A DNA stretch of 64,000 nucleotides from the sequence record NC_000866.4; one strand, given 5' to 3'. A program made the position numbers and the translations under genes. Origin of the DNA: Escherichia phage T4. Under the pieces are notes generated by a model that saw nothing but the letters and a program-made list of their open reading frames with translations, was not told the DNA's origin and ran no database searches. Shown piece after piece: positions 10,900 to 62,757 of the stretch; the stretch's first letter is position 1; every line of letters starts with the position of its first letter.

Positions 10900-11525
10900 T
10901 ATAGTAACTCAAAGAACTCTTTGAGGCCTCTTATTACGTGAGCATGGGTTTTTCCACACTCTGGACACTTAATTGGAACAGCCAAATAAACGGTAGGCTT
11001 TAAAAGCATATCTTTTATAGCTACAATATCTGACTCTGTGATGATAGAATATAAATCTTCTAGTTCCTTTTCATTTAAGTCTTCAACTGGAATGCTTTCC
11101 CCGTTAGCATGAATCGTTTCTATACATGATACTATCATGTGGGCTATATTTTTATCATCAAAAATTTTAGGGTATCGGAATTTAATTTTAATGTCACCTA
11201 GTGTATACCAGAGGTCTTCTGGTGCATCTATTTGTGTATGTAATAGATTTATATGGGTTGGTATTTCAGTTCCACAGGTGCACTTCCAGGAGTTTTCGTG
11301 ATTAACTTCACCGAGAGAATGTGCCCATAAATGAATCAACAATAGTTCTGATTCTTGGCGGTTTAAATCTTTTGCATTTGTGCAGTCTTTGATTAGCTTT
11401 TTAACAATTACTTCTACGGAACCATTATTTTTGGCAGTAATAAGTTCTAGATATTCTTTAAGCGTGAATGCGCGACAATTGATTATTTTAGAACCAACTC
11501 TCACATCAAATTTGTATTCATACAT
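10899..11525 (-). CDS. 26: Baseplate hub protein gp26
   Basis: 208-aa ORF, ATG verified; position between 25 and 51. Confidence 0.85.
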
Positions 11526-11548
11526 ATTTAGCTCCTTTATTTATCATA

Positions 11549-11558
11549 TTTATAAATA
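11549..11558. promoter_or_regulatory. Divergent late promoter motifs between genes 26 and 51
   Basis: TATTTATAAATA gives TATAAATA on both strands in the 50-nt divergent intergenic region. Confidence 0.5.
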
Positions 11559-11575
11559 GAATAAAAGGAGCATCT

Positions 11576-12325
11576 ATGGCAAACATTATTCGTTGTAAAT
11601 TACCAGATGGTGTTCATCGTTTTAAACCATTTACGGTAGAAGATTATCGAGATTTTTTGTTAGTTCGAAACGATATAGAACATCGGTCACCACAAGAACA
11701 AAAGCAAATAATTACTGATTTAATTGATGATTATTTTGGAGACTATCCGAAGACTTGGCAACCATTTATATTTTTGCAGGTATTTGTAGGGTCAATAGGT
11801 AAAACTAAAAGTACGGTCACATTTATATGTCCAAAATGTAAAAAAGAAAAGACAGTTCCATTTGAAATATATCAAAAAGAATTAAAGGACCTTGTTTTTG
11901 ATGTAGCTAATGTTAAAATTAAATTAAAGTTTCCTTCTGAGTTTTATGAAAATAAAGCAAAGATGATTACTGAAAATATTCATTCTGTTCAAGTAGATGA
12001 AATATGGTATGATTGGAAGGAAATTAGCGAGTCCAGTCAAATAGAACTAGTTGACGCCATCGAGATAGAAACATTAGAAAAAATTCTCGATGCAATGAAT
12101 CCTATTAATTTAACTCTACACATGTCATGCTGTAATAAGTACATTAAAAAATACACTGATATAGTAGACGTGTTTAAGCTATTAGTTAACCCAGATGAGA
12201 TATTTACTTTTTATCAAATTAATCACACACTCGTAAAAAGTAATTATAGCTTAAATTCAATAAGTAAAATGATTCCTGCCGAGCGCGGATTCGTATTAAA
12301 ACTGATTGAGAAGGATAAACAATAA
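11576..12325 (+). CDS. 51: Baseplate hub assembly protein gp51
   Basis: 249-aa ORF at T4 gene 51 position. Confidence 0.85.
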
Positions 12326-13978: not shown

Positions 13979-15747
13979 AAAAGCCACAAGAAATGCAAAC
14001 GATGCGTAGAAAAGTTATTTCAGATAATAAACCAACACAGGAAGCGGCTAAATCCGCTTCTAATACTTTATCTGGGCTTAATGACATATCTACGAAATTG
14101 GATGATGCTCAAGCTGCTTCTGAATTAATAGCTCAAACTGTCGAAGAAAAATCGAATGAAATAATTGGAGCAATTGACAATGTAGAAAGCGCAGTGAGTG
14201 ATACATCTGCCGGTTCTGAGTTAATTGCTGAAACTGTCGAAATTGGCAACAATATTAATAAAGAAATCGGTGAATCGCTCGGAAGCAAATTAGATAAATT
14301 AACAAGTTTACTAGAGCAAAAAATCCAGACAGCTGGAATTCAACAGACTGGAACTAGTTTAGCTACGGTTGAAAGCGCTATTCCTGTTAAAGTCGTTGAG
14401 GATGATACTGCTGAATCTGTGGGTCCTTTATTACCAGCTCCTGAAGCAGTTAATAATGATCCTGACGCTGATTTTTTCCCTACCCCTCAGCCAGTTGAGC
14501 CAAAGCAAGAATCACCAGAAGAAAAACAGAAAAAAGAAGCATTTAACTTAAAATTATCTCAAGCTTTAGATAAATTAACGAAGACTGTTGATTTTGGATT
14601 TAAAAAATCCATTTCAATTACTGATAAAATATCAAGCATGCTATTTAAGTACACCGTCAGTGCTGCTATTGAAGCTGCTAAAATGACTGCAATGATATTG
14701 GCTGTTGTTGTTGGAATAGACCTTTTGATGATTCACTTTAAATACTGGTCAGATAAATTTTCAAAAGCCTGGGATTTGTTTAGTACAGACTTTACCAAAT
14801 TCTCTAGCGAAACCGGAACTTGGGGTCCTTTATTACAGAGCATCTTTGATTCTATTGATAAAATTAAACAACTTTGGGAAGCGGGAGATTGGGGTGGATT
14901 GACAGTAGCTATTGTTGAAGGGCTTGGAAAGGTTCTTTTTAATTTAGGTGAACTTATTCAATTAGGTATGGCTAAATTATCTGCAGCAATTCTTCGAGTC
15001 ATTCCTGGTATGAAGGATACTGCTGATGAAGTAGAAGGAAGAGCATTAGAAAATTTCCAAAATTCTACTGGAGCATCTCTCAATAAAGAAGACCAAGAAA
15101 AAGTAGCAAATTATCAAGATAAACGAATGAATGGAGACCTTGGCCCAATAGCAGAAGGACTAGACAAAATCTCTAACTGGAAAACTCGTGCATCTAACTG
15201 GATTCGTGGTGTAGATAATAAAGAAGCGCTGACTACCGACGAAGAGCGTGCGGCAGAAGAAGAAAAATTAAAGCAACTTTCACCGGAAGAAAGAAAAAAT
15301 GCTTTAATGAAGGCTAATGAAGCTCGTGCTGCGATGATTCGTTTTGAAAAATATGCCGATTCAGCTGATATGAGTAAAGACTCAACGGTTAAATCAGTTG
15401 AAGCTGCCTATGAAGACCTTAAAAAACGGATGGATGACCCGGATTTAAATAATTCACCGGCAGTTAAAAAAGAACTTGCTGCTAGATTTTCTAAAATTGA
15501 TGCTACTTATCAAGAGCTCAAGAAAAATCAGCCTAATGCCAAACCTGAAACTTCTGCTAAATCACCAGAAGCGAAACAAGTCCAGGTGATTGAAAAGAAC
15601 AAAGCACAGCAAGCTCCTGTTCAACAAGCATCTCCTTCGATCAATAATACTAATAATGTTATTAAGAAAAATACTGTCGTTCATAATATGACACCTGTAA
15701 CGAGCACGACTGCTCCTGGTGTATTTGATGCGACTGGAGTTAATTAA
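13975..15747 (+). CDS. 29: Tail tube tape-measure / baseplate hub protein gp29
   Basis: 590-aa ORF, helical and Ala/Glu/Lys-rich; position match. Confidence 0.9.
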   Translation: MKKPQEMQTMRRKVISDNKPTQEAAKSASNTLSGLNDISTKLDDAQAASELIAQTVEEKSNEIIGAIDNVESAVSDTSAGSELIAETVEIGNNINKEIGESLGSKLDKLTSLLEQKIQTAGIQQTGTSLATVESAIPVKVVEDDTAESVGPLLPAPEAVNNDPDADFFPTPQPVEPKQESPEEKQKKEAFNLKLSQALDKLTKTVDFGFKKSISITDKISSMLFKYTVSAAIEAAKMTAMILAVVVGIDLLMIHFKYWSDKFSKAWDLFSTDFTKFSSETGTWGPLLQSIFDSIDKIKQLWEAGDWGGLTVAIVEGLGKVLFNLGELIQLGMAKLSAAILRVIPGMKDTADEVEGRALENFQNSTGASLNKEDQEKVANYQDKRMNGDLGPIAEGLDKISNWKTRASNWIRGVDNKEALTTDEERAAEEEKLKQLSPEERKNALMKANEARAAMIRFEKYADSADMSKDSTVKSVEAAYEDLKKRMDDPDLNNSPAVKKELAARFSKIDATYQELKKNQPNAKPETSAKSPEAKQVQVIEKNKAQQAPVQQASPSINNTNNVIKKNTVVHNMTPVTSTTAPGVFDATGVN

Positions 15748-15755
15748 GGAATAAT

Positions 15756-16850
15756 ATGGCAATTGTTAAAGAAATAACTGCTGATTTAATTAAAAAGTCC
15801 GGTGAGAAAATTTCAGCCGGACAGAGTACTAAATCAGAAGTAGGAACTAAAACATACACAGCCCAGTTTCCAACTGGGCGTGCTAGTGGTAATGACACTA
15901 CAGAGGACTTCCAGGTAACAGATCTATATAAGAATGGATTATTATTTACTGCATACAATATGTCATCTAGGGATTCTGGAAGTCTTAGATCGATGAGATC
16001 TAACTACTCTTCTTCATCTTCGAGTATTTTACGTACAGCTAGAAACACTATTAGTAGTACAGTATCAAAACTATCAAATGGATTAATATCAAATAATAAT
16101 TCAGGAACAATAAGTAAATCTCCTATCGCAAACATTCTTTTACCGAGATCTAAATCTGATGTTGATACATCATCACATAGATTTAATGATGTTCAAGAAA
16201 GCCTTATCAGTAGAGGCGGAGGTACTGCTACTGGTGTGCTAAGTAATATTGCTTCAACCGCAGTATTTGGGGCACTGGAAAGTATAACACAAGGTATAAT
16301 GGCTGATAATAATGAACAGATTTATACGACAGCCAGAAGTATGTATGGTGGTGCTGAAAATAGAACTAAAGTGTTTACATGGGATTTGACTCCACGTTCA
16401 ACAGAAGATTTAATGGCTATTATTAATATCTATCAATATTTTAACTATTTTTCTTATGGTGAAACGGGTAAATCTCAATATGCTGCTGAAATAAAGGGGT
16501 ATTTAGATGATTGGTATCGTTCTACGTTAATTGAACCTTTATCTCCGGAAGACGCAGCTAAAAATAAAACACTATTTGAGAAAATGACATCGAGTTTAAC
16601 TAACGTTCTAGTAGTTTCAAACCCGACAGTTTGGATGGTGAAAAACTTTGGCGCAACATCTAAGTTTGATGGAAAAACGGAAATATTTGGTCCATGTCAA
16701 ATACAGAGCATTAGATTTGATAAAACACCTAATGGTAACTTTAACGGATTAGCTATTGCTCCAAACCTCCCTAGTACATTTACTCTCGAGATTACTATGA
16801 GAGAAATTATCACGTTAAACCGTGCTTCTTTATATGCGGGGACTTTTTAA
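15756..16850 (+). CDS. 48: Baseplate-tail tube junction protein gp48
   Basis: 364-aa ORF; position match. Confidence 0.9.
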   Translation: MAIVKEITADLIKKSGEKISAGQSTKSEVGTKTYTAQFPTGRASGNDTTEDFQVTDLYKNGLLFTAYNMSSRDSGSLRSMRSNYSSSSSSILRTARNTISSTVSKLSNGLISNNNSGTISKSPIANILLPRSKSDVDTSSHRFNDVQESLISRGGGTATGVLSNIASTAVFGALESITQGIMADNNEQIYTTARSMYGGAENRTKVFTWDLTPRSTEDLMAIINIYQYFNYFSYGETGKSQYAAEIKGYLDDWYRSTLIEPLSPEDAAKNKTLFEKMTSSLTNVLVVSNPTVWMVKNFGATSKFDGKTEIFGPCQIQSIRFDKTPNGNFNGLAIAPNLPSTFTLEITMREIITLNRASLYAGTF

Positions 16851-17812
16851 TGTATTCTTTAGAGGAATTTAATAATCAAGCAATAAACGCAGATTTCCAA
16901 CGTAATAATATGTTTAGCTGCGTTTTTGCGACAACTCCATCAACTAAAAGCTCTTCGTTGATAAGTTCAATTAGCAACTTTTCTTATAATAACTTGGGCC
17001 TAAATTCAGATTGGTTAGGATTAACTCAAGGTGATATTAATCAGGGAATTACCACGCTAATTACAGCTGGCACACAAAAACTGATAAGAAAATCAGGAGT
17101 CAGTAAATATCTTATTGGTGCCATGAGTCAACGTACAGTTCAAAGTTTATTAGGCTCATTTACAGTTGGTACATATTTAATTGACTTCTTTAACATGGCA
17201 TATAACTCATCTGGATTGATGATATACTCTGTAAAAATGCCAGAGAATAGATTATCCTATGAAACTGACTGGAACTATAATTCTCCTAATATTCGTATAA
17301 CCGGAAGAGAATTAGACCCTTTGGTTATTTCATTTAGAATGGATTCAGAAGCTTGTAACTATCGTGCAATGCAAGACTGGGTTAACTCCGTTCAAGACCC
17401 AGTAACTGGACTGCGTGCTTTGCCACAAGATGTCGAGGCAGATATTCAGGTTAATCTTCATTCTCGCAATGGATTACCTCATACTGCGGTGATGTTCACG
17501 ATGCATTCAATATCAGTGAGCGCTCCTGAGTTATCATATGATGGAGATAACCAAATAACTACATTTGATGTTACTTTTGCGTACAGAGTGATGCAGGCTG
17601 GAGCAGTTGATAGGCAACGTGCGCTTGAATGGCTTGAATCTGCTGCTATAAATGGTATTCAAAGCGTTCTCGGAAATAGTGGAGGTGTTACTGGACTATC
17701 TAATTCGCTTTCACGACTTAGTAGATTAGGGGGAACTGCAGGAAGCATTTCAAACATTAATACTATGACAGGAATTGTCAATTCGCAGAGTAAAATATTA
17801 GGAGCAATATAA
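16850..17812 (+). CDS. 54: Baseplate-tail tube initiator gp54
   Basis: 320-aa ORF; position match. Confidence 0.9.
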   Translation: MYSLEEFNNQAINADFQRNNMFSCVFATTPSTKSSSLISSISNFSYNNLGLNSDWLGLTQGDINQGITTLITAGTQKLIRKSGVSKYLIGAMSQRTVQSLLGSFTVGTYLIDFFNMAYNSSGLMIYSVKMPENRLSYETDWNYNSPNIRITGRELDPLVISFRMDSEACNYRAMQDWVNSVQDPVTGLRALPQDVEADIQVNLHSRNGLPHTAVMFTMHSISVSAPELSYDGDNQITTFDVTFAYRVMQAGAVDRQRALEWLESAAINGIQSVLGNSGGVTGLSNSLSRLSRLGGTAGSISNINTMTGIVNSQSKILGAI

Positions 17813-17816
17813 CAAT

Positions 17817-17838
17817 GGGGACCGAAAGGTCCATATTT
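17817..17838. terminator. Hairpin terminator after gene 54 / alt.-3
   Basis: GGACC-gaaa-GGTCC followed by ATATTTTTATTT. Confidence 0.6.
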
Positions 17839-18129
17839 TTATTTACGGAATGAAATGAAAGCAGCAACTGAAGCAACTAAACTGTCTTCAATATAAACTT
17901 CAATTTTTACAGGAGCTTCTGACTCAAATTTACCTGTTACTACACCCTGAAAAATACTTTCAGTCTGTTCTGGCTTTGAAAAATTTTCAGAAGGAAAAAT
18001 TCCGAACTTTTTATCTGTTCCAAAAATTTTGATAAATTCATCGTAAACCGCTTCGTTAAAAGCATTATCAGCAGGAATAACGCCTTCAACTACAAGTTCT
18101 TGACCTAAAAAGCGTAAAGAAGATTTCAT
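17839..18129 (-). CDS. hypothetical protein (T4 alt.-3 position)
   Basis: 96-aa ORF with AGGA ribosome-binding site just upstream of the ATG. Confidence 0.65.
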   Translation of the reverse strand: MKSSLRFLGQELVVEGVIPADNAFNEAVYDEFIKIFGTDKKFGIFPSENFSKPEQTESIFQGVVTGKFESEAPVKIEVYIEDSLVASVAAFISFRK

Positions 18130-18154
18130 TTTGTGTTCCTCATGTTATGTTAGT

Positions 18155-18195
18155 AAGACTACTATAACACAACACGAGGGACTTGTAAACTACAT
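18155..18195 (-). promoter_or_regulatory. T4-type early promoter
   Basis: minus strand GTTTACA (-35), 17-nt spacer, TATAGT (-10). Confidence 0.6.
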
Positions 18196-18365
18196 TTTGA
18201 ACTTTTTAGTACGCGTAATAGGCATGCGTCGATTTTATACTGTTTCATTGTTTGAAGAGCAGTATCAAAAACAGCATTAATGACACCAATTGGATTTCCA
18301 CCCAAGTTTTTAAGCTTAACTAATGATAGTTTCTCATTAACACCTATCATTACGATATGCATCAT
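18162..18365 (-). CDS. Alt N-terminal paralogue fragment (T4 alt.-2 position)
   Basis: 67-aa ORF aligning to Alt residues about 64-120 (QTMKQYKIDACLLRVLKS vs QTMRQYKIDACMLRILKS). Confidence 0.6.
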   Translation of the reverse strand: MMHIVMIGVNEKLSLVKLKNLGGNPIGVINAVFDTALQTMKQYKIDACLLRVLKSSKCSLQVPRVVL

Positions 18366-18547
18366 TTTATCGCCTGGTTTAACGTTTTATTTGTATCACC
18401 GCCAGAGGTGTATGTACAAAATCTAAATCCAGGAAGTACACTTTCTTCACCGGCTTGAATAGCAAAAATTTGTGGTATTTTATGCTTAGGATTTAATGTA
18501 ACAACCGGCGCCGAAGCGCCGTCAAATAATTCTGTAATAAGTTCCAT
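18362..18547 (-). CDS. Alt N-terminal paralogue fragment (T4 alt.-1 position)
   Basis: 61-aa ORF aligning to Alt residues 1-60 (MELITELFD...PGFRFCTYTSGGDTN). Confidence 0.6.
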   Translation of the reverse strand: MELITELFDGASAPVVTLNPKHKIPQIFAIQAGEESVLPGFRFCTYTSGGDTNKTLNQAIK

Positions 18548-18550
18548 GAT

Positions 18551-20602
18551 TTATCCTTGAACGAACTTGTAAGGCATGTTTGCAATATCTATGCAAGACG
18601 CAATAATTCCAAGAGATGATTCTACTTTCTGTTTAACATTTGATGAAACAAATGATGCAAAGTCAACTCTATCTTCTATATCACCTGTCATTGTAACCAA
18701 TTCACCAGTTTCCATTAAATGGTCTCCGTCATAGATTACCGATTCGGTGAGTTCTTCTGTGGTCATAACTTCAGCTTGAATAAGCTTGTTGTTAGTTTTA
18801 ACTGTTCCATCATTGTAAGATGCATCGGTTATTTTATTAACTTTGACCATTAATCCACGTGGCAAAATGACTTCCATTTCATTTGAAGGCGCTAAACTTC
18901 CACCGGGTAAAACAACATTGACCTTATCAGCCCCAGTAATAACCCATCCAATTCCAACTAAATTATCGCTAGAATTTACAAGTCCTTCATCAGTTTTATC
19001 AATAGAAACGCTTAAACGCTTTTCGTCTGGTAAAACACCTATAGATGAATCAGTCATCCAAGTACCAAAAATATTTGGATATAATGATGTTGACACAAAG
19101 TTTCTAAAATAAAAAACTCGATTTTTTACCATTGCTTCGTATATTGAAGGTAACATTCGTTGTGAACGATACAAAGTAATACCTTTTGGTAATCGTTCAC
19201 CATTTTTAAAGGCTGAATCTAAATTATCAATAGCTTTTTCTATGTCAGATGCTGTCAAAATACTTGTACGCTCATCTGGATTATATAATCCCAAAAGAGC
19301 ATTATTTATGTCTACATATCCTGAACCTACGTATTCACGAATTCCGCGTTTTTGCGCTGGTGTGTATTTAGATGAATCTTTATTTTCGACTATAGGATGT
19401 AATGACCATCCAGCGGTAAGAGCATATCCACGTAATTCTCTTCGAATAATCTTTGTTTTTATTGCATTCCAAGAATTTTGTACTAACTCATTTGCAGCAT
19501 CTTGGTTTAAATGCGAATGTTTGTTAATATTTCTTTCAAACCAAGCACCCTTATATTTTTCTAAAGTATCATCGACGATAGAAGCAATAGTTTCTAAGGT
19601 TTTTATTGAAGTAATAGATTCTTTTCGTAATCTTTCTAAAGCTTTATTTTTTATTTCTGCGTTAATAATGGATTCTTTATCTTCAGGAATTATAGAAGCT
19701 TCTCTGAATGCCATCCCAGCTGTAACACTGCTAAGAGCATTCTCTAGTGCAAATCCTGAAGTAGAAATTACCGTTAATTCATTAGAATCAGAAATTAAAG
19801 GCGCGTCCGCTGGTTTATTTAATTCGGCCGCTGAAGCCTCAAATTTTTGAAACATTGGTGTTTCAAATCTAGAAGATTCCAATGACTGACTTTGCGCAAT
19901 TGCTCTACGGGAAATTTTAACTTTAACGATTACAGCTTGGTCAGAACGTTTATCATTTTCTTGCGCAATAGATGCTGCAATTGCCTCATTTTTAGTTACT
20001 TGAGCCCCAGTATCTTTATTGATATAAACATCACCGACCTTCGATTCAACTTTAGTAAAGAGCTCGGTACTAATTTCCGGAACTCCTGGAATGTCTTCTA
20101 GTGATACATTTTTGCGATGTATAAGAATATATGCATACTTTTTATCGTAATCCCAGAGTTCCTTAAGAAGGACGTATCTACCACCTGAACGACTACGGAT
20201 AAGTCTATCAGCAATAACTTGAATTTGTCGAGCTTGGCCAGCAGTTTTAGACTTAAGAATACGGAGCATACAGGCATCAATTTTATACTGGCGCATTGTT
20301 TGCATTGCAACAGTAAAAACTGAATTGATATAATTAATTGGGCTTGGACCAAGACCTTTTAATTTAGCAATTGAACCTTTAGCAGTTAATGTAAAAGGAA
20401 CAATATGCATCATTTTATCGCCCATCTTTAAATCACGATTAGTATCACCTCCAGATGTATAGGTACATAAACGAAAGCCTGGTTGTTCAATTGCATCATC
20501 AACATGAACTGAAAAAATTTGCGGTATTTTCTTCTTTGGATATAAGTTTGTAATTGGAAGAGTAGTATCTTCGTCAAATAATTCTGTAATAAGTTCCATC
20601 AT
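18551..20602 (-). CDS. alt: Alt ADP-ribosyltransferase (packaged with DNA, modifies host RNA polymerase)
   Basis: 683-aa ORF recognised as T4 Alt. Confidence 0.9.
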   Translation of the reverse strand: MMELITELFDEDTTLPITNLYPKKKIPQIFSVHVDDAIEQPGFRLCTYTSGGDTNRDLKMGDKMMHIVPFTLTAKGSIAKLKGLGPSPINYINSVFTVAMQTMRQYKIDACMLRILKSKTAGQARQIQVIADRLIRSRSGGRYVLLKELWDYDKKYAYILIHRKNVSLEDIPGVPEISTELFTKVESKVGDVYINKDTGAQVTKNEAIAASIAQENDKRSDQAVIVKVKISRRAIAQSQSLESSRFETPMFQKFEASAAELNKPADAPLISDSNELTVISTSGFALENALSSVTAGMAFREASIIPEDKESIINAEIKNKALERLRKESITSIKTLETIASIVDDTLEKYKGAWFERNINKHSHLNQDAANELVQNSWNAIKTKIIRRELRGYALTAGWSLHPIVENKDSSKYTPAQKRGIREYVGSGYVDINNALLGLYNPDERTSILTASDIEKAIDNLDSAFKNGERLPKGITLYRSQRMLPSIYEAMVKNRVFYFRNFVSTSLYPNIFGTWMTDSSIGVLPDEKRLSVSIDKTDEGLVNSSDNLVGIGWVITGADKVNVVLPGGSLAPSNEMEVILPRGLMVKVNKITDASYNDGTVKTNNKLIQAEVMTTEELTESVIYDGDHLMETGELVTMTGDIEDRVDFASFVSSNVKQKVESSLGIIASCIDIANMPYKFVQG

Positions 20603-20640
20603 ATCCTCTCTAGTGTTTATTCTATTCTATTTATAAAATT

Positions 20641-25017: not shown

Positions 25018-25350
25018 TTATTTTACTACTTTCCAATGCTGCATGTCAAGTTTACCAACTTTTTTCATCTTCTCAATTAAGCGTTCTGCACGTTGGCGAG
25101 CTGTAACATAATGCCATTCGCCTAATTCATTTTGTTCAATTTTTCCAACGATTACTGTATTCAATTCATAAATCCAACCAGTAAAGAAATTATGAACTTG
25201 AATTGTAAAGGTGAAATCTGTTCCCATACCTTCTGTTGTTTCTACTTCAATAATATCACCTTCAACTGCCATTAAGAACCACATAGTTTCATCATATTTA
25301 CCATTGAAGCATTTAGTTTTAACTGCAGCGTTCAGATTAATCGTTTTCAT
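25018..25350 (-). CDS. hypothetical protein (T4 30.7 position)
   Basis: 110-aa ORF preceded by an early-promoter-like element. Confidence 0.6.
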   Translation of the reverse strand: MKTINLNAAVKTKCFNGKYDETMWFLMAVEGDIIEVETTEGMGTDFTFTIQVHNFFTGWIYELNTVIVGKIEQNELGEWHYVTARQRAERLIEKMKKVGKLDMQHWKVVK

Positions 25351-25369
25351 TTTATTCTCCTTTGTTTGT

Positions 25370-25410
25370 GTAAGATAATACTATCACAAAGGAACTATAC
25401 TGTAAACAAC
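25370..25410 (-). promoter_or_regulatory. T4-type early promoter upstream of the 30.7-position ORF
   Basis: minus strand GTTTACA, spacer, TAGTATTAT, then AAGGAG ribosome-binding site. Confidence 0.55.
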
Positions 25411-30232: not shown

Positions 30233-30528
30233 TTACATTTATCCTCTTTTAGCTCTTGACGATAATAACATATCATAGTTTTCTGGTCATGTACATATCG
30301 TTTTACATCATTAAGCCAAATACGAAATTCCTGAGAATCTTCAAATGGCATACCGACCCAGGCTTTACCATCAATAACTTTAACTTGCCAAGATAGTTTA
30401 GCTTCATCATATGACTTTATTTGCACAGGCCAATTAGGATGAACTGTTTCTTTCTTTACTTCTAGAGGCTTTGTCGAACAACCAACTAGAAGACCAATAG
30501 ATAATATTACTGCTGATAGTTTAATCAT
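30229..30528 (-). CDS. Outer-membrane lipoprotein, candidate o-spanin (pseT.2 position)
   Basis: 99 aa; signal peptide ending in lipobox LLVGC-S. Confidence 0.7.
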
Positions 30529-30878
30529 TTAGAAAGGTCCTGGATGTCTTCTGCGAACTTGTTGAAGGAGTTGTTGATTTGTTTTTCAACCAATCCTGGC
30601 TTATGAGCCACCACATCCGCCTTCTTTGCATCTTTGCGCAGTTTTTCATTTTCACGCTCAATAGCAGCAATTGCCTCACGATTTTTATTATTCATCGCAT
30701 CAATATAATTATACTGAATTCGCAAATTATTTAATGCTAAGGCGTTTTCATTGGCCGTTTTTGTAATTTCAGTAACTGATGTTTCTAATCTTTCTACCTT
30801 ATGTTTTAAAATAATAGATGTTCCGCCAAATGCTATTACAAGTAATAGCAATCCAGCTGTAAAATTACTTACATGCAT
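30525..30878 (-). CDS. Candidate i-spanin, N-terminal TM plus coiled coil (pseT.3 position)
   Basis: 117 aa; N-terminal hydrophobic helix FTAGLLLLVIAFGGTSIIL then helical heptad-rich region; overlaps the lipoprotein gene start. Confidence 0.7.
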   Translation of the reverse strand: MHVSNFTAGLLLLVIAFGGTSIILKHKVERLETSVTEITKTANENALALNNLRIQYNYIDAMNNKNREAIAAIERENEKLRKDAKKADVVAHKPGLVEKQINNSFNKFAEDIQDLSK

Positions 30879-31375
30879 AAAGTTTTAATAACCTCTACAA
30901 TATCGTCTTGAGAAAGACCGTTAATTAAAATATGATGTTCAGCTGGAGATTTAGAAATTTTAAAGCATGCCTCAACATCTTCTGCCATATCCGATGCACT
31001 ACGATTTGGATTACTAATACCAAGGCGATGTTTTCCCGTCAAAGGATTAACGATGATATAGCATTTGCAGCTATTGATATGAACATTGGGTTGAGTCTGA
31101 TTAATGAACACTTCACAATCATACTTAGCAAGTTGATTTTCTAAAAAGACTTTCATCTCTTCAACCGCATCAGGAAGCATATCACGGGCTTGCTCAAGAC
31201 GACGATTTCGATATTCTTTAATGGTCGTTTTCCGCTTGACTTGCTTAGCTAAATCTTTCTTAAGACCAGTGATATATCCAACTCGACGATTTCCTTTGAA
31301 TACAGAAATCCCATCTGTAGTATCACCGTATGCTTCAACGACCATTTCAGTAGTAATAAGTTGTAAATCCATCAT
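30869..31375 (-). CDS. alc: Alc, inhibitor of host transcription
   Basis: 168-aa ORF at T4 alc position with recognised N-terminus. Confidence 0.8.
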   Translation of the reverse strand: MMDLQLITTEMVVEAYGDTTDGISVFKGNRRVGYITGLKKDLAKQVKRKTTIKEYRNRRLEQARDMLPDAVEEMKVFLENQLAKYDCEVFINQTQPNVHINSCKCYIIVNPLTGKHRLGISNPNRSASDMAEDVEACFKISKSPAEHHILINGLSQDDIVEVIKTLCM

Positions 31376-31399
31376 AAAGTCCTCATGTTATGTCAGTAA

Positions 31400-31436
31400 G
31401 ACTACTATAACACAACACGAGGGACTTGTAAACAAC

Positions 31437-31438
<2 letters not shown>
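31400..31438 (-). promoter_or_regulatory. T4-type early promoter (duplicate of the module at 18138-18190)
   Basis: GTTTACA, spacer, TATAGT on minus strand; about 53-nt near-identical repeat. Confidence 0.55.
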
Positions 31439-33024
<1,586 letters not shown>

Positions 33025-33051
33025 AATAAAATGGGCCTTGCGGCCCACTCC

Positions 33052-33554
33052 TTAAAAGTATTTTTTAAAACTCATCATAACTTTATCATCAACATCATTA
33101 TCAATCTGTGCAACAAGGTAAGATGACAGTTCTACTTCTTGCGGCGCGGATTGAACATTATCAGAATTAAGATATTCACGAATCCAAGGATATGGATGTT
33201 TAACCGGAGCATCGGTAATTGGGCATGGAAGACCGCACTGTTTCATACGAGATACAGTTAAGTAATCAATAAAGCTCCACATGCTATTTGTATTTAATCC
33301 AGGAACATCACCATCTTTAAATAAATGAACTGCCCAGTCTTTTTCCTGGCGGTTAACTTCCATGAAAATATCAACTGCTTCTTGTTCACACTCTTGGGCA
33401 ATTTTAACCCATTCATCACCATCAGTACCGGATTGAAGTTGACGAATAATATATTGGGTGCCTTTAAGGTGAAGCTGTTCATCACGTGCAATGAACTTCA
33501 TAATCTTGGCATTACCTTCCATGATTTCCATGTTCTTATGGAAGTTAAAGGTAC
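33052..33554 (-). CDS. nrdB: Ribonucleotide reductase small subunit NrdB, exon 2
   Basis: C-terminal NrdB sequence (MEGNAKIMKFIARDEQLHL...); 3-prime splice site placed after intron-terminal G so the junction reads VSFA-C-TFNF. Confidence 0.85.
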
Positions 33555-41899: not shown

Positions 41900-41934
41900 A
41901 TTATTTTCCTCTTTAATTATTAGCAGTATTGCCG

Positions 41935-41995
41935 ATAGTTGTATAGTACCATAAAGCTTTATGCTTGTAAACCGTTTTGTGAAAAAATTTTTAAA
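41935..41995 (-). promoter_or_regulatory. T4-type early promoter with A/T-rich upstream element
   Basis: minus strand AAAATTTTTTCACAAAACGGTTTACA, 17 nt, TACTATAC. Confidence 0.6.
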
Positions 41996-42002
41996 ATAAA
42001 AA

Positions 42003-42021
42003 AGGGGACCTCTAGGGTCCC
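42003..42021 (-). terminator. Rho-independent terminator after gene 32
   Basis: GGGGACC-ctaga-GGTCCCC followed by UUUUUUAUUUU on minus strand. Confidence 0.7.
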
Positions 42022-42044
42022 CAATTAATTAGTAATATAATCTA

Positions 42045-58699: not shown

Positions 58700-58732
58700 T
58701 TTCTAATCTCCGTAATTCTGTATCAGTAGTTG

Positions 58733-58795
58733 ATAGTTGTATAGTACCACAGTATGCTTTGGTTGTAAACCGTTTTGTGAAAAAATTTTTAAAAT
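58733..58795 (-). promoter_or_regulatory. T4-type early promoter upstream of motA
   Basis: minus strand AAAATTTTTTCACAAAACGGTTTACA, 17 nt, TACTATAC; near-identical to the element at 41935-41995. Confidence 0.6.
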
Positions 58796-58800
58796 AAAAA

Positions 58801-58820
58801 AGGGAGAGCCTCGGCTCTCC
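58801..58820 (-). terminator. Rho-independent terminator downstream of gene 52 region
   Basis: GGGAGAGCC...GGCTCTCCC hairpin followed on minus strand by UUUUUUAUUUU. Confidence 0.65.
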
Positions 58821-58826
58821 CTAAAA

Positions 58827-58976
58827 TTACTGCATGACTGTGATAACTGTCATGATAACACGTTGAATTCCGAACGCAAGAAGACCTCCTGCTACGGCTG
58901 GAACAACGCCTAAACCCGCCAGTAAAATGCTACCAGATACTAATGCAGCGCTTGTAATACCAATGAATGGACTCAT
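58827..58976 (-). CDS. small hydrophobic membrane peptide (hand-read ORF)
   Basis: 49-aa ORF MSPFIGITSAALVSGSILLAGLGVVPAVAGGLLAFGIQRVIMTVITVMQ; start overlaps gene 52 stop. Confidence 0.4.
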   Translation of the reverse strand: MSPFIGITSAALVSGSILLAGLGVVPAVAGGLLAFGIQRVIMTVITVMQ

Positions 58977-61908: not shown

Positions 61909-62147
61909 TTTTTAAAAATATTCGTAATAAATGTGAATACCAACTACTACCGCTGAAACCTGTGCAACCCACCACGCACAAGCAATAAGTACAGAATTCA
62001 AAATTTTCATAATAACCTCATTACAAAAGTAAATGTTAAACAAATTACTGGAATACTAATTAACCAAACAAAACACCACCATAATGAACTCATAGTTCAA
62101 TCTCAGCGATTTTCATTTTATTCTCCAAATCCGTATCAGTAGTTGAT

Positions 62148-62195
62148 AGTTGTATAGTACCACGGTCCTTGTGGTATGTAAACTGTTTTGTGAAA
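62148..62195 (-). promoter_or_regulatory. T4-type early promoter immediately downstream of denB
   Basis: minus strand CACAAAACAGTTTACA, spacer, TACTATAC; shares a 31-nt identical block with 58718-58748. Confidence 0.55.
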
Positions 62196-62199
62196 TTTT

Positions 62200-62757
62200 T
62201 TAAATGGAAAGATACCATCCGTTGTAGTTGCTTTTTCTTACAACTTTACGAAGGTCTTCTCTGTCACCGATGAACTTCGGAGTGTACTGGATGACACCTG
62301 GATGAATTTCTTTAGTGTTGAATATAATTATACAGTCAGCGACTTGATGATTTAGAATGGGCCCTAGATTTATTCCAGAACCATATGGATACTCTCCGCT
62401 GCATCCCGTTGTTACCGAAATCCAACGTGAGTCAGTTTGATGTGTCTTAACTTCTACACGAAGCCCGCAGTATTTTGGATGAGCCAATACATCCCATGCA
62501 TATGTGTACGGATCATCGACATCCTCTTGGCCTTTATTGACATATCCACTCAACCAATCTGCCACAAAAAACTCTGCGTACACAGCGATACGGCATCTTT
62601 CGATAACTTCTGCCTTATCTTGATTTGGGTTTTGTTTTAAAGAGTATCTTGCAGTATCAGCAATTTTGACCTTCATTTCACAGGTCAAGTCACTGTTCGA
62701 TAGGGTAAATGTCGGAATCTGAAATAGTCTCTGTAACCCAGGATTCGTTTTCTGCAT
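62200..62757 (-). CDS. denB: Endonuclease IV
   Basis: 185-aa ORF at the T4 denB position. Confidence 0.8.
   Translation of the reverse strand: MQKTNPGLQRLFQIPTFTLSNSDLTCEMKVKIADTARYSLKQNPNQDKAEVIERCRIAVYAEFFVADWLSGYVNKGQEDVDDPYTYAWDVLAHPKYCGLRVEVKTHQTDSRWISVTTGCSGEYPYGSGINLGPILNHQVADCIIIFNTKEIHPGVIQYTPKFIGDREDLRKVVRKSNYNGWYLSI

What the first reader, a model, noticed from the sequence alone, without database searches (positions are those of the whole stretch)
18138..18190. About 53-nt promoter-leader module duplicated 13 kb apart
The sequence cctcatgttatgt(t/c)agtaagactactataacacaacacgagggacttgtaaac occurs at 18138-18190 and again at 31381-31433 with a single mismatch. On the minus strand it contains an early-promoter -35/-10 pair and the ribosome-binding site and start of the downstream gene (the alt.-3-position ORF and alc respectively). 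Such long exact repeats in direct orientation can drive deletions or promoter swapping by homologous recombination.
Basis: seen in the sequence. Interest (0 to 1): 0.4.

Follow-up and report, generated by a model that had tools for sequence, protein, structure and literature searches.

The report
Duplicated T4 early promoter-leader cassette
Phage T4 carries two near-identical 54-bp early-promoter and leader cassettes in front of the genes alc and alt.-3; each can fold so that its ribosome-binding site is hidden in RNA that reads in from upstream but exposed in RNA started at its own promoter, an ordinary kind of phage control element seen here in a form I could not find described.

Summary
The repeat is real: 54 nt, 53/54 identical, at 18137-18190 and 31380-31433, with none expected by chance. 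The window is the last 64 kb of the phage T4 reference genome. On the minus strand each copy runs exactly from the -35 (GTTTAC) to the Shine-Dalgarno sequence (GAGGA) of alt.-3 and alc; the start codons lie outside the repeat.

Both copies occur in about 498 Tequatrovirus genomes. Read-through RNA occludes the SD (opening cost 13-14 kcal/mol). RNA started at the cassette's own promoter does not (1.5-3.5 kcal/mol).

At the rnlA-alc spacer this architecture recurs in 9 of 13 genera with different stem sequences (cognate duplex -18.1 vs non-cognate -9.6 kcal/mol, p<1e-5). In four other genera alt.-3 has a different, non-occluding cassette, so the alc-type copy at alt.-3 is a Tequatrovirus-specific replacement.

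A deletion between the repeats would remove essential genes 30 and 31. No ongoing gene conversion was detected.

Verdict: a PeSL-type cassette working like the gene e / I-TevI occluded starts, but with an early promoter. Function is inferred, not shown. Moderate interest.

The parts
18137..18190 (-). Cassette copy 1 (module positions 1-54 = 18190 down to 18137), between the alt.-2 pseudogene fragment and alt.-3
31380..31433 (-). Cassette copy 2, filling the rnlA (gene 63)-alc spacer; the rnlA TAA stop is at 31439-31437
18184..18189 (-). -35 hexamer TTTACA of copy 1 (GTTTAC = 18190-18185)
18161..18166 (-). -10 hexamer TATAGT of copy 1, preceded by the extended -10 TG (18169-18168); the annotated alt.-2 stop TAG (18164-18162) lies inside it
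18165..18179 (-). 5' arm of the hairpin, copy 1 (CCUCGUGUUGUGUUA; promoter spacer plus the first two bases of the -10); upstream of the predicted TSS (~18154), so absent from own-promoter RNA
18138..18152 (-). 3' arm of the hairpin, copy 1 (UAACAUAACAUGAGG), containing the SD (GAGGA = 18141-18137)
31427..31432 (-). -35 hexamer TTTACA of copy 2
31404..31409 (-). -10 hexamer TATAGT of copy 2, with the extended -10 TG
31408..31422 (-). 5' arm of the hairpin, copy 2; predicted TSS ~31397
31381..31395 (-). 3' arm of the hairpin, copy 2 (UGACAUAACAUGAGG), containing the SD (GAGGA = 31384-31380)
17839..18129 (-). alt.-3 coding sequence (96 aa), served by copy 1
30869..31372 (-). alc coding sequence (167 aa; an alternative in-frame ATG lies at 31375), served by copy 2
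20628..20635 (-). Late-promoter consensus TATAAATA just upstream of alt, right after a terminator hairpin; the source of late transcripts that must run through alt, alt.-1 and alt.-2 into copy 1
17819..17832 (-). First terminator-like hairpin downstream on the minus strand (after alt.-3); the scan finds none between the alt late promoter and copy 1

Best explanation
Each copy is a self-contained early-expression cassette of phage T4. It holds a strong sigma-70-type promoter (-35 GTTTACA, 17-nt spacer, TG-extended -10 TATAGT), a leader of about 17 nt, and the SD of the gene behind it (alt.-3 or alc).

The promoter spacer and the start of the -10 are complementary to the leader and SD over 15 bp. 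RNA polymerase starting at the cassette's own promoter (predicted +1 about 7 nt after the -10) makes an mRNA that lacks the 5' arm, so its ribosome-binding site is open. RNA that enters from upstream contains both arms and folds, which buries the SD. At copy 1 that upstream RNA comes from the alt late promoter. At copy 2 it is whatever transcribes rnlA.

The predicted result is that Alc and Alt.-3 are translated only from immediate-early transcripts, and are shielded from middle and late read-through of upstream genes whose products (Alt, gp63) are needed late. This is the gene e / I-TevI design with the timing reversed.

The two copies are alike because, in the ancestor of Tequatrovirus, the cassette in front of alt.-3 was replaced by a copy of the alc-type cassette. 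Recombination was anchored on the motifs all such cassettes share (-35 GTTTACA and ...CATGAGGA). Both copies have since been conserved.

Shown here (computationally): the repeat, the promoter motifs, the hairpin, the accessibility difference, the cross-genus conservation of complementarity, and the cassette replacement. Inferred: the TSS positions, the actual read-through, the translational block, and its benefit to the phage.
For: Repeat and sharp edges from -35 to SD, with unrelated flanks.

Promoter consensus 10/12 with TG. alc and alt.-3 are early RNA / early protein, rnlA is early RNA / late protein, and Alt protein rises late: (PMC9697503 supplement). Alc belongs to the immediate-early burst: (PMC2988021).

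Hairpin of -23 and -26.9 kcal/mol, z = -4.9 and -4.4, with 0 of 200 shuffles as stable. Opening SD..AUG costs 13.4 / 14.1 kcal/mol in read-through RNA and 1.5 / 3.5 in own-promoter RNA, insensitive to a TSS shift of +/-2. Sense RNA is 4.6-9 kcal/mol more stable than antisense (three G.U pairs).

Among 92 candidate gene starts in the window, alt.-3 ranks 2nd and alc 7th for occlusion. The published occluded start I-TevI ranks 3rd, which serves as a positive control.

The rnlA-alc spacer in Gelderland-, Karam-, Moon-, Jiaoda-, Dhaka-, Roskilde-, Kanagawa- (CIP9) and Bragavirus has the same layout with different stem sequences. Cognate spacer-leader duplexes average -18.1 vs -9.6 kcal/mol for non-cognate; the cognate is the best partner in its row for 9 of 11 genera; permutation p < 1e-5.

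Within Tequatrovirus, 98.6% of stem cells pair. All stem transitions keep pairing, and there is a C-G -> U.G -> U-A series.

Late promoter upstream of alt with no intervening minus-strand terminator. No U-tract after the hairpins and no terminator call at either copy.

alt.-3 cassettes in Melville, WG01, EnC15 and RB69 are different and non-occluding.
Against: No experimental TSS, structure probing or translation data for these sites could be retrieved. The T4 dRNA-seq TSS table is not held, and the older subscription literature is not searchable.

Within-genus covariation is not statistically significant, because variation is too low (98 of 500 shuffles reach the observed value).

In TG1 and PEi20 the hairpin stops 5-6 nt before the SD. 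Mosigvirus has only a small spacer hairpin, and Henu6 has a true terminator. SD occlusion is therefore not universal, and the stem-loop may have another or an additional role.

The promoters that feed read-through into alc were not established. The MotA-box-like site before rnlA is not in the published list of middle promoters, and a terminator-like hairpin lies between nrdB and denA.

No obvious harm from late Alc or Alt.-3 synthesis is known; alt.-3 is dispensable.

The direction of the cassette transfer (alc -> alt.-3) rests on parsimony of architecture. Sequence identity does not discriminate.
Confidence: 0.55

Rival explanations
1. PeSL-type terminator/attenuator or 3'-end stabiliser. The stem-loop acts on the upstream transcript: it stops or attenuates transcription coming from rnlA or alt, or protects the 3' end of that mRNA. 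Its overlap with the SD is secondary.
For: Arbiol et al. describe promoter/stem-loop/SD cassettes whose stem-loops lie in or over the promoter. They showed that one such stem-loop cut downstream lacZ expression as strongly as a strong terminator. In TG1 and PEi20 the hairpin ends before the SD, and in Henu6 the same position holds a hairpin followed by a U-run. The third T4 instance, 30.8, sits just after a canonical terminator.
Against: Neither T4 copy is followed by a U-tract, and neither is called terminator-like. The same holds in 9 genera. In 9 of 13 genera the 3' arm ends exactly on the SD, which a terminator does not need. A reduction of lacZ by a stem-loop is also what SD occlusion or polarity would produce.
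Confidence: 0.2
2. The repeat matters only as recombination substrate. Two 54-bp direct repeats promote deletions, duplications or continuing promoter exchange, and the hairpin is incidental.
For: The cassette at alt.-3 was evidently replaced once. Some polymorphisms (15T, 16A, 32A) occur at both loci. PeSL cassettes are documented recombination points. Copy 1 borders the indel-prone alt_2 region.
Against: The 13.2-kb interval holds genes 30 and 31 and about 30 others, so a deletion should be lethal, and a 13-kb duplication exceeds the T4 terminal redundancy (T4 knowledge). About 498 genomes keep both copies. Paralogues are no more alike within genomes than between genomes (2.73 vs 2.82 differences, p = 0.41). 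Spacer-leader complementarity is maintained across genera while the sequence changes, which recombination alone does not explain.
Confidence: 0.12
3. Translational coupling device. The hairpin keeps the SD closed until a ribosome finishing the upstream ORF (rnlA or alt_2) melts it, so alc and alt.-3 on long transcripts are translated only when the upstream gene is.
For: The upstream stop codons sit immediately before or overlapping the -35 in all genera. In T4 the annotated alt.-2 stop lies inside the hairpin loop.
Against: The stop-to-stem distance is 7-14 nt in the intact arrangements. That is probably beyond the reach of a terminating ribosome (inference). alt.-2 is a pseudogene fragment. 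Coupling would defeat the early-only protein pattern seen for alc and alt.-3.
Confidence: 0.08
4. Neutral leftover. The copies are alike only because the duplication is recent, and the inverted repeat has no function.
For: Tequatrovirus is a shallow genus. The module evolves at roughly the rate of its flanks (mean orthologue differences of 1.4 and 3.2 per 54 nt). Within-genus covariation is not significant.
Against: Cognate-specific complementarity holds across 9 genera with diverged sequences. Hairpin z-scores run from about -2 to -7. Occlusion ranks with I-TevI among all gene starts in the window.
Confidence: 0.05

Closest known systems
PeSL (promoter-early stem-loop) cassettes of T4-type phages (Arbiol et al. 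2010, PMC2839356; Comeau et al. 2014, PMC4122927)
   Same: Both sit in a compact intergenic spacer, with the upstream stop codon directly ahead and the SD and start codon of the next gene at the 3' end. Both have a strong sigma-70-like early promoter (the TTTACW..N17..TAYWAT type in the T4/PST pair) and a stem-loop placed in or over the promoter. Both are repeated within a genome and implicated in exchanging sequence between loci. The replacement of the alt.-3 cassette by the alc-type cassette fits that model.
   Different: In the described PeSLs the stem-loop is short, often G/C-rich, and read as a terminator/attenuator; the SD lies outside it. Here the helix is 15 bp, spans the spacer and start of the -10 on one side and the leader on the other, and ends on the SD, with no U-tract after it. 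The copies are 13 kb apart, across essential genes, so they do not flank a dispensable ORF and mini-circle excision is not an option.
Occluded translation-initiation regions with an internal promoter: T4 genes e, soc, 49, I-TevI (Uzan and Miller 2010, PMC3014915)
   Same: The SD is sequestered in a helix in long transcripts. A promoter lies in the DNA that encodes the 5' strand, so transcripts from that promoter lack the 5' strand and are translated. The predicted occlusion energies of alt.-3 and alc equal that of I-TevI computed the same way.
   Different: The known cases use late promoters (TATAAATA) and silence late or harmful genes on early and middle read-through RNA. Here the internal promoter is an early sigma-70 promoter, and the read-through comes from later transcription, so the timing is reversed. 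No experimental demonstration exists for alc or alt.-3. The review does not mention alc at all and names only e, soc, 49 and I-TevI as inhibitory structures.
Ordinary T4 early promoters (the 'uber' UP/-35/TGn/-10 class; Hinton 2010, PMC2988021)
   Same: -35 GTTTACA, 17-nt spacer, TGn, -10 TAnnnT, an A-rich upstream flank, and early expression of the downstream genes.
   Different: Other early-promoter cassettes share only about 56-78% identity with one another. This pair shares 98%, and its spacer is complementary to its own SD. In the window that complementarity is seen at 3 of 7 promoter-plus-SD cassettes.

Membership tests
T4 early (sigma-70-type) promoter | -35 (G)TTTAC(A/T), 17 +/- 1 nt spacer, -10 TAnnnT, usually with an extended -10 TGn | tested here: met
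   TTTACA, 17 nt, TATAGT, 10/12 matches, TG present, at both copies
T4 early (sigma-70-type) promoter | Transcription starts there immediately after infection without phage proteins | not testable with these tools
   Indirect evidence only: alc and alt.-3 are classed as early RNA / early protein and Alc belongs to the immediate-early burst. The dRNA-seq TSS table is not held.
PeSL cassette | Early promoter, a stem-loop in or over the promoter, and an SD/start at the 3' end, in a short spacer that begins at the upstream stop codon | tested here: met
   for T4 and relatives; definition
PeSL cassette | The stem-loop works as a transcription terminator/attenuator | tested here: inconclusive
   No U-tract, and not called terminator-like. 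Termination itself cannot be measured here.
PeSL cassette | Copies serve as points of exchange between otherwise unrelated sequences | tested here: met
   The alt.-3 cassette in four other genera is unrelated beyond promoter consensus, whereas in Tequatrovirus it is a 98% copy of the alc cassette with edges at the -35 and the SD. No continuing exchange was detected.
Occluded TIR with internal promoter (gene e type) | SD and/or AUG base-paired in long transcripts | tested here: met
   Prediction only: opening cost of 13-14 kcal/mol, P(SD unpaired) between 1e-6 and 1e-9; ranks 2 and 7 of 92 starts
Occluded TIR with internal promoter (gene e type) | The promoter lies within the DNA for the 5' strand, so its own transcripts lack that strand | tested here: met
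   5' arm = module positions 12-26; -10 = positions 25-30; predicted +1 near position 37. Own-promoter RNA opens at 1.5-3.5 kcal/mol. The TSS is predicted, not mapped.
Occluded TIR with internal promoter (gene e type) | Long transcripts really cross the site | tested here: inconclusive
   Copy 1: a late promoter lies before alt and no terminator is found before the cassette. Copy 2: the feeding promoter is not established. No RNA data.
Occluded TIR with internal promoter (gene e type) | Translation from long transcripts is strongly reduced | not testable with these tools
   Needs reporter fusions, toeprinting or ribosome profiling
Occluded TIR with internal promoter (gene e type) | The internal promoter is a late promoter (TATAAATA) and the silenced RNA is early/middle | tested here: not met
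   The internal promoter is sigma-70 early type. It works like the family but with reversed timing.
Intrinsic (rho-independent) terminator | G+C-rich hairpin immediately followed by a U-run | tested here: not met
   Followed by ACACAAAAUG / CUUUAUGAUG; not reported by the scan at either copy
Curated RNA family (Rfam 15) | Match at or above a family's gathering score | tested here: not met
   No hit in the window. Only a chance-level hit (E = 0.89) turned up near copy 1.

The most novel reading that the evidence does not exclude
Early-promoter-embedded, SD-occluding hairpins form a conserved and portable device in T4-like phages that confines translation of immediate-early genes to transcripts from their own promoter. 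That would give an automatic 'translation window' which closes when early promoters shut off, even though the gene is still transcribed by middle or late read-through. It is old at alc (9 genera), was transplanted as a unit to alt.-3 in Tequatrovirus, and a third example serves gene 30.8. It would be the mirror image of the gene e / I-TevI late switch, and would show that regulatory logic, not only promoters, moves between loci as a cassette.
Probability: 0.45. Interest if true: 0.55.

Novelty: new member of a known kind. Interest (0 to 1): 0.35.

Why it matters
T4 is a reference system for phage gene regulation, yet the published list of occluded initiation regions contains only late-promoter cases. 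If the alc and alt.-3 hairpins work as predicted, they add the reverse case: early genes protected from later read-through. They would help explain how T4 stops making immediate-early proteins when their genes lie downstream of genes needed late. They would also show that a complete promoter-plus-translational-switch unit can be copied between loci by recombination at the -35 and SD anchors. Practically, it matters for people engineering T4-like phages: swapping or deleting the gene upstream of such a cassette, or driving it from a foreign upstream promoter, would be expected to give little protein.

Tried and rejected
(1) Deletion variants. The module search gave 995 places in 498 records, essentially two per genome, including laboratory deletion strains of T4. 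No variant lacking the interval was seen.

(2) Ongoing gene conversion. In 15 genomes with both copies, within-genome paralogue distance was 2.73 and between-genome distance 2.82 (permutation p = 0.41). No signal, though power is low because these phages recombine with each other.

(3) Wider sampling. IMG/VR gave only 5 contigs per locus. The single metagenome scan gave 14 loci, of which about 10 were usable.

(4) Column-wise covariation across genera. MAFFT gave an almost ungapped alignment with the 3' arms out of register. I did not hand-fit an alignment, to avoid bias, and used the cognate/non-cognate duplex test instead.

(5) Within-genus covariation. 98.6% of cells pair, but the shuffle control is not significant (98 of 500 shuffles).

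(6) My first ungapped alc vs alt.-3 identities were redone with gaps. The conclusion did not change.

(7) Experimental TSSs. The dRNA-seq table of the NAD-cap preprint is not held. Searches for promoter names found nothing relevant. Miller et al. 2003 and the reference record NC_000866 are not available.

(8) A middle promoter before rnlA. A MotA-box-like site exists but is not in the published table, so it is treated as a candidate only.

(9) Rfam: no family.

(10) GEP001's 'DNA ligase' label over the module looked like a possible rearrangement but is a mis-annotation of the two alt paralogues.

Full report
OBSERVATION. The window holds a direct repeat at 18137-18190 and 31380-31433. It is 54 nt long with one mismatch (18151 T / 31394 C), or 57 nt with two mismatches, and the copies start 13,243 bp apart. 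The 54-mer, allowing 3 mismatches, matches only these two sites, and no match occurs in 100 dinucleotide-preserving shuffles. It is the most similar long repeat in the window; the other promoter-type repeat families are 62-83% identical.

SOURCE AND CONTEXT. The window is phage T4 (99.6-100% identity to T4 records). Gene coordinates quoted for NC_000866 in a published supplement place it at the last 64,000 bp of the reference genome, with an offset of 104,903.

Both copies read on the minus strand. Copy 2 fills the spacer between rnlA (gene 63; TAA at 31439-31437) and alc. Copy 1 lies between alt.-2 and alt.-3. alt.-2 and alt.-1 are the remains of a second alt paralogue. That paralogue is intact in T2 and most relatives, where the module fills the roughly 60-nt spacer between it and alt.-3.

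The repeat has sharp edges. It starts at the G of the -35 GTTTAC and ends at the A of the SD GAGGA, and the flanks are unrelated. The start codons are outside the repeat, which corrects one detail of the finding.

Promoter scans give TTTACA, 17 nt, TATAGT with an extended -10 TG at both copies. Published omics class alc and alt.-3 as early RNA / early protein. A review places Alc in the immediate-early burst. alt.-3 is dispensable and of unknown function.

As RNA, the minus strand forms a 15-bp hairpin. Module positions 12-26 (CCUCGUGUUGUGUUA: promoter spacer plus the start of the -10) pair with positions 39-53 (U[A/G]ACAUAACAUGAGG: leader plus SD). The rest of the -10 sits in the loop. Stability is -23.0 and -26.9 kcal/mol, z = -4.9 and -4.4, and none of 200 shuffles folds as well. 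The single difference between the two copies changes U-A to U.G, so pairing is kept.

A sigma-70 promoter starts about 7 nt after the -10, near module position 37. Own-promoter RNA therefore lacks the whole 5' arm. Opening the SD-to-AUG stretch costs 13.4 (alt.-3) and 14.1 (alc) kcal/mol in read-through RNA. It costs 1.5 and 3.5 kcal/mol in own-promoter RNA, and moving the TSS by +/-2 nt changes nothing. The sense strand is 4.6-9 kcal/mol more stable than the antisense strand because of three G.U pairs, which points to a structure in sense-strand RNA.

As calibration, the same opening energy was computed for 92 candidate gene starts in the window. The median is 4.8 and the 95th percentile 11.2 kcal/mol. 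alt.-3 ranks 2nd (13.4). I-TevI, a published occluded start, ranks 3rd (13.0). alc ranks 7th (10.7 to its first AUG).

IS THE HAIRPIN SELECTED? Within Tequatrovirus the module is present twice in essentially every genome (498 records, 995 places). In 36 instances (19 distinct sequences), 98.6% of stem cells pair. All transitions seen in the stem keep pairing: C->U opposite G, A->G opposite U, and G.U->A-U. One pair shows the full series C-G (T4), U.G (T2), U-A (SHFML-26). Variation is too low for significance, however; 98 of 500 shuffles do as well.

The decisive evidence comes from other genera. The rnlA-alc spacer of Gelderlandvirus, Karamvirus, Moonvirus, Jiaodavirus, Dhakavirus, Roskildevirus, Kanagawavirus (CIP9) and Bragavirus has the same layout, with stems of different sequence: -35, then the 5' arm directly after it, the -10 in the loop, and a 3' arm ending on the SD. 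An alignment-free control compared each spacer with its own leader and with the leaders of the other genera. Cognate duplexes average -18.1 kcal/mol against -9.6 for non-cognate pairs. The cognate is the best partner in its row in 9 of 11 genera, and permutation gives p < 1e-5.

There are exceptions. In TG1 and PEi20 the hairpin ends 5-6 nt before the SD. Mosigvirus has only a small spacer hairpin. Acinetobacter phage Henu6 has a true terminator at this position.

WHY TWO COPIES? alt.-3 homologues exist in several genera. In Melville, WG01, EnC15 and RB69 the gene also has an early promoter right after the alt stop codon. That cassette carries a short stem-loop confined to the spacer and does not occlude the SD. 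It is only 56-73% identical to the same genus's alc cassette, which is the background level among early-promoter cassettes. The alc-type cassette at alt.-3 is therefore specific to Tequatrovirus.

The simplest reading is one replacement event in the genus ancestor, with junctions at the motifs all cassettes share (GTTTACA and ...CATGAGGA). The direction alc -> alt.-3 follows from parsimony of architecture, not from sequence identity.

A permutation test on 15 genomes found paralogues no more alike within genomes than between them (2.73 vs 2.82 differences; p = 0.41). There is thus no evidence for continuing gene conversion. The commonest haplotype occurs at both loci, as expected for a shared ancestor in a shallow genus.

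The interval between the copies contains genes 30 (DNA ligase), 31 (co-chaperonin), cd, pseT and many others. Genes 30 and 31 are essential (established T4 genetics). A 13-kb duplication would exceed the terminal redundancy of a headful-packaged genome (T4 knowledge). Viable crossovers between the repeats are therefore not expected, and none was seen.

MECHANISM PROPOSED. Directly upstream of alt lies a terminator hairpin followed by the late-promoter consensus TATAAATA (20635-20628). The scan finds no minus-strand terminator before the one after alt.-3 at 17832-17819. Late alt transcripts must therefore cross copy 1. Alt is a late-accumulating virion protein, as is the tail-fibre attachment function of gp63 (annotation).

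The model is that immediately after infection the cassette promoters fire and give open, translatable leaders. Later RNA entering from upstream folds the hairpin and is not translated. Alc and Alt.-3 are thus made only early. This is the gene e / soc / 49 / I-TevI principle with an early instead of a late internal promoter.

For copy 2 the source of read-through is less clear. A MotA-box-like site with an extended -10 lies just before rnlA (about 32613-32588), but it is absent from the published table of middle promoters. A terminator-like hairpin also lies between nrdB and denA.

COMPARISON WITH WHAT IS KNOWN. The closest described class is the PeSL: early promoter, stem-loop in or over the promoter, and SD at the 3' end. 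PeSLs are repeated and act as exchange points. The present cassette meets the structural definition and the exchange behaviour. It differs in that its long helix ends on the SD and has no U-tract, so a terminator role is not indicated.

Functionally it resembles the occluded initiation regions with an internal late promoter. The T4 post-transcriptional review names only e, soc, 49 and I-TevI among inhibitory structures and does not mention alc. Full-text searches found no description of this hairpin. The older subscription literature on T4 could not be searched, so prior description cannot be excluded. Rfam has no matching family.

VERDICT. The feature is a PeSL-type early cassette whose conserved hairpin most likely gates translation by transcript origin. 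The structure and its conservation are well supported. The regulatory consequence is inferred, with confidence of about 0.55. It is a new member of known kinds, not a new kind, and of moderate interest.

Noticed in passing
window 25348-25407 (-): A third early-promoter cassette whose spacer (UUCCUUUGU, 25394-25386) pairs with its own SD (ACAAAGGAG, 25365-25357). It sits in front of a 110-aa ORF (gene 30.8, ATG at 25350), directly after a canonical terminator. The opening energy is 10.2 kcal/mol, rank 9 of 92.
   Followed up: partly
window ~33024-33065 (-): The denA start has the highest opening energy in the window (16.0 kcal/mol). The SD AAGGAG is followed by the hairpin GGGCCGCAAGGCCC and UUUUAUU before the AUG. 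It looks like the nrdB terminator doubling as a 'split' initiation region of the gene 25/38 type. The terminator scan did not report it.
   Followed up: no
window 11525-11576 (both strands): Two divergent starts (208 aa on the minus strand, 249 aa on the plus strand; probably genes 26 and 51) share a palindromic spacer with overlapping back-to-back TATAAATA late promoters (11547-11558). Each SD (AAAGGAG) is the complement of the other's (CTCCTTT). Both rank high for occlusion (12.4 and 10.4 kcal/mol).
   Followed up: no
window ~32588-32613 (-): A MotA-box-like sequence (GATGCTTCC), then 13 nt, then an extended -10 (TGG TACTAT). It starts right after the denA stop and lies about 30 nt before rnlA. 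It is not in the published table of about 60 T4 middle promoters (PMC2988021).
   Followed up: partly
window 18520-18550 and 20572-20602: A 31-nt repeat, 97% identical, formed by the 5' ends of alt.-1 and alt (MELITELFD...). It is a trace of the tandem alt duplication. T4 lacks about 1.7 kb of the second paralogue, which is intact in T2, SHFML-26, HY01 and others.
   Followed up: partly
L038 (Mosigvirus NHEP10) 438-501; L050 (RB69) 342-401: The Mosigvirus alc leader (CAACACGAGGAG) is almost perfectly complementary to the T4 5' arm, but its spacer carries a small hairpin like the alt.-3 cassettes of other genera. Its best matches are alt.-3-type cassettes (73-77%). This may be a swap in the opposite direction.
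   Followed up: partly
window 41916-42031, 58714-58829, 62127-62206: Families of 64-98-nt repeats (63-83% identical) made of a terminator hairpin, an A/T-rich stretch and an early promoter. These are classic PeSL-like cassettes near the end of the genome.
   Followed up: no
whole window: Rfam at gathering threshold reports nothing in the 64 kb. By T4 knowledge the td and nrdB group I introns lie in this stretch (nrdB is annotated as joined, with I-TevIII inside it). The inserted homing-endonuclease ORFs presumably split the intron models.
   Followed up: no
window 17000-19500: This stretch is only 99.6% identical, with a net 5-nt length difference, to every resequenced T4 record, whereas 30300-32800 is 100% identical. 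This may reflect errors or strain differences in the alt region of the reference sequence.
   Followed up: no
L005 (PV173775.1 GEP001) 14059-18213: Both alt paralogues of phage GEP001 are annotated as 'DNA ligase'. This is a database mis-annotation.
   Followed up: yes
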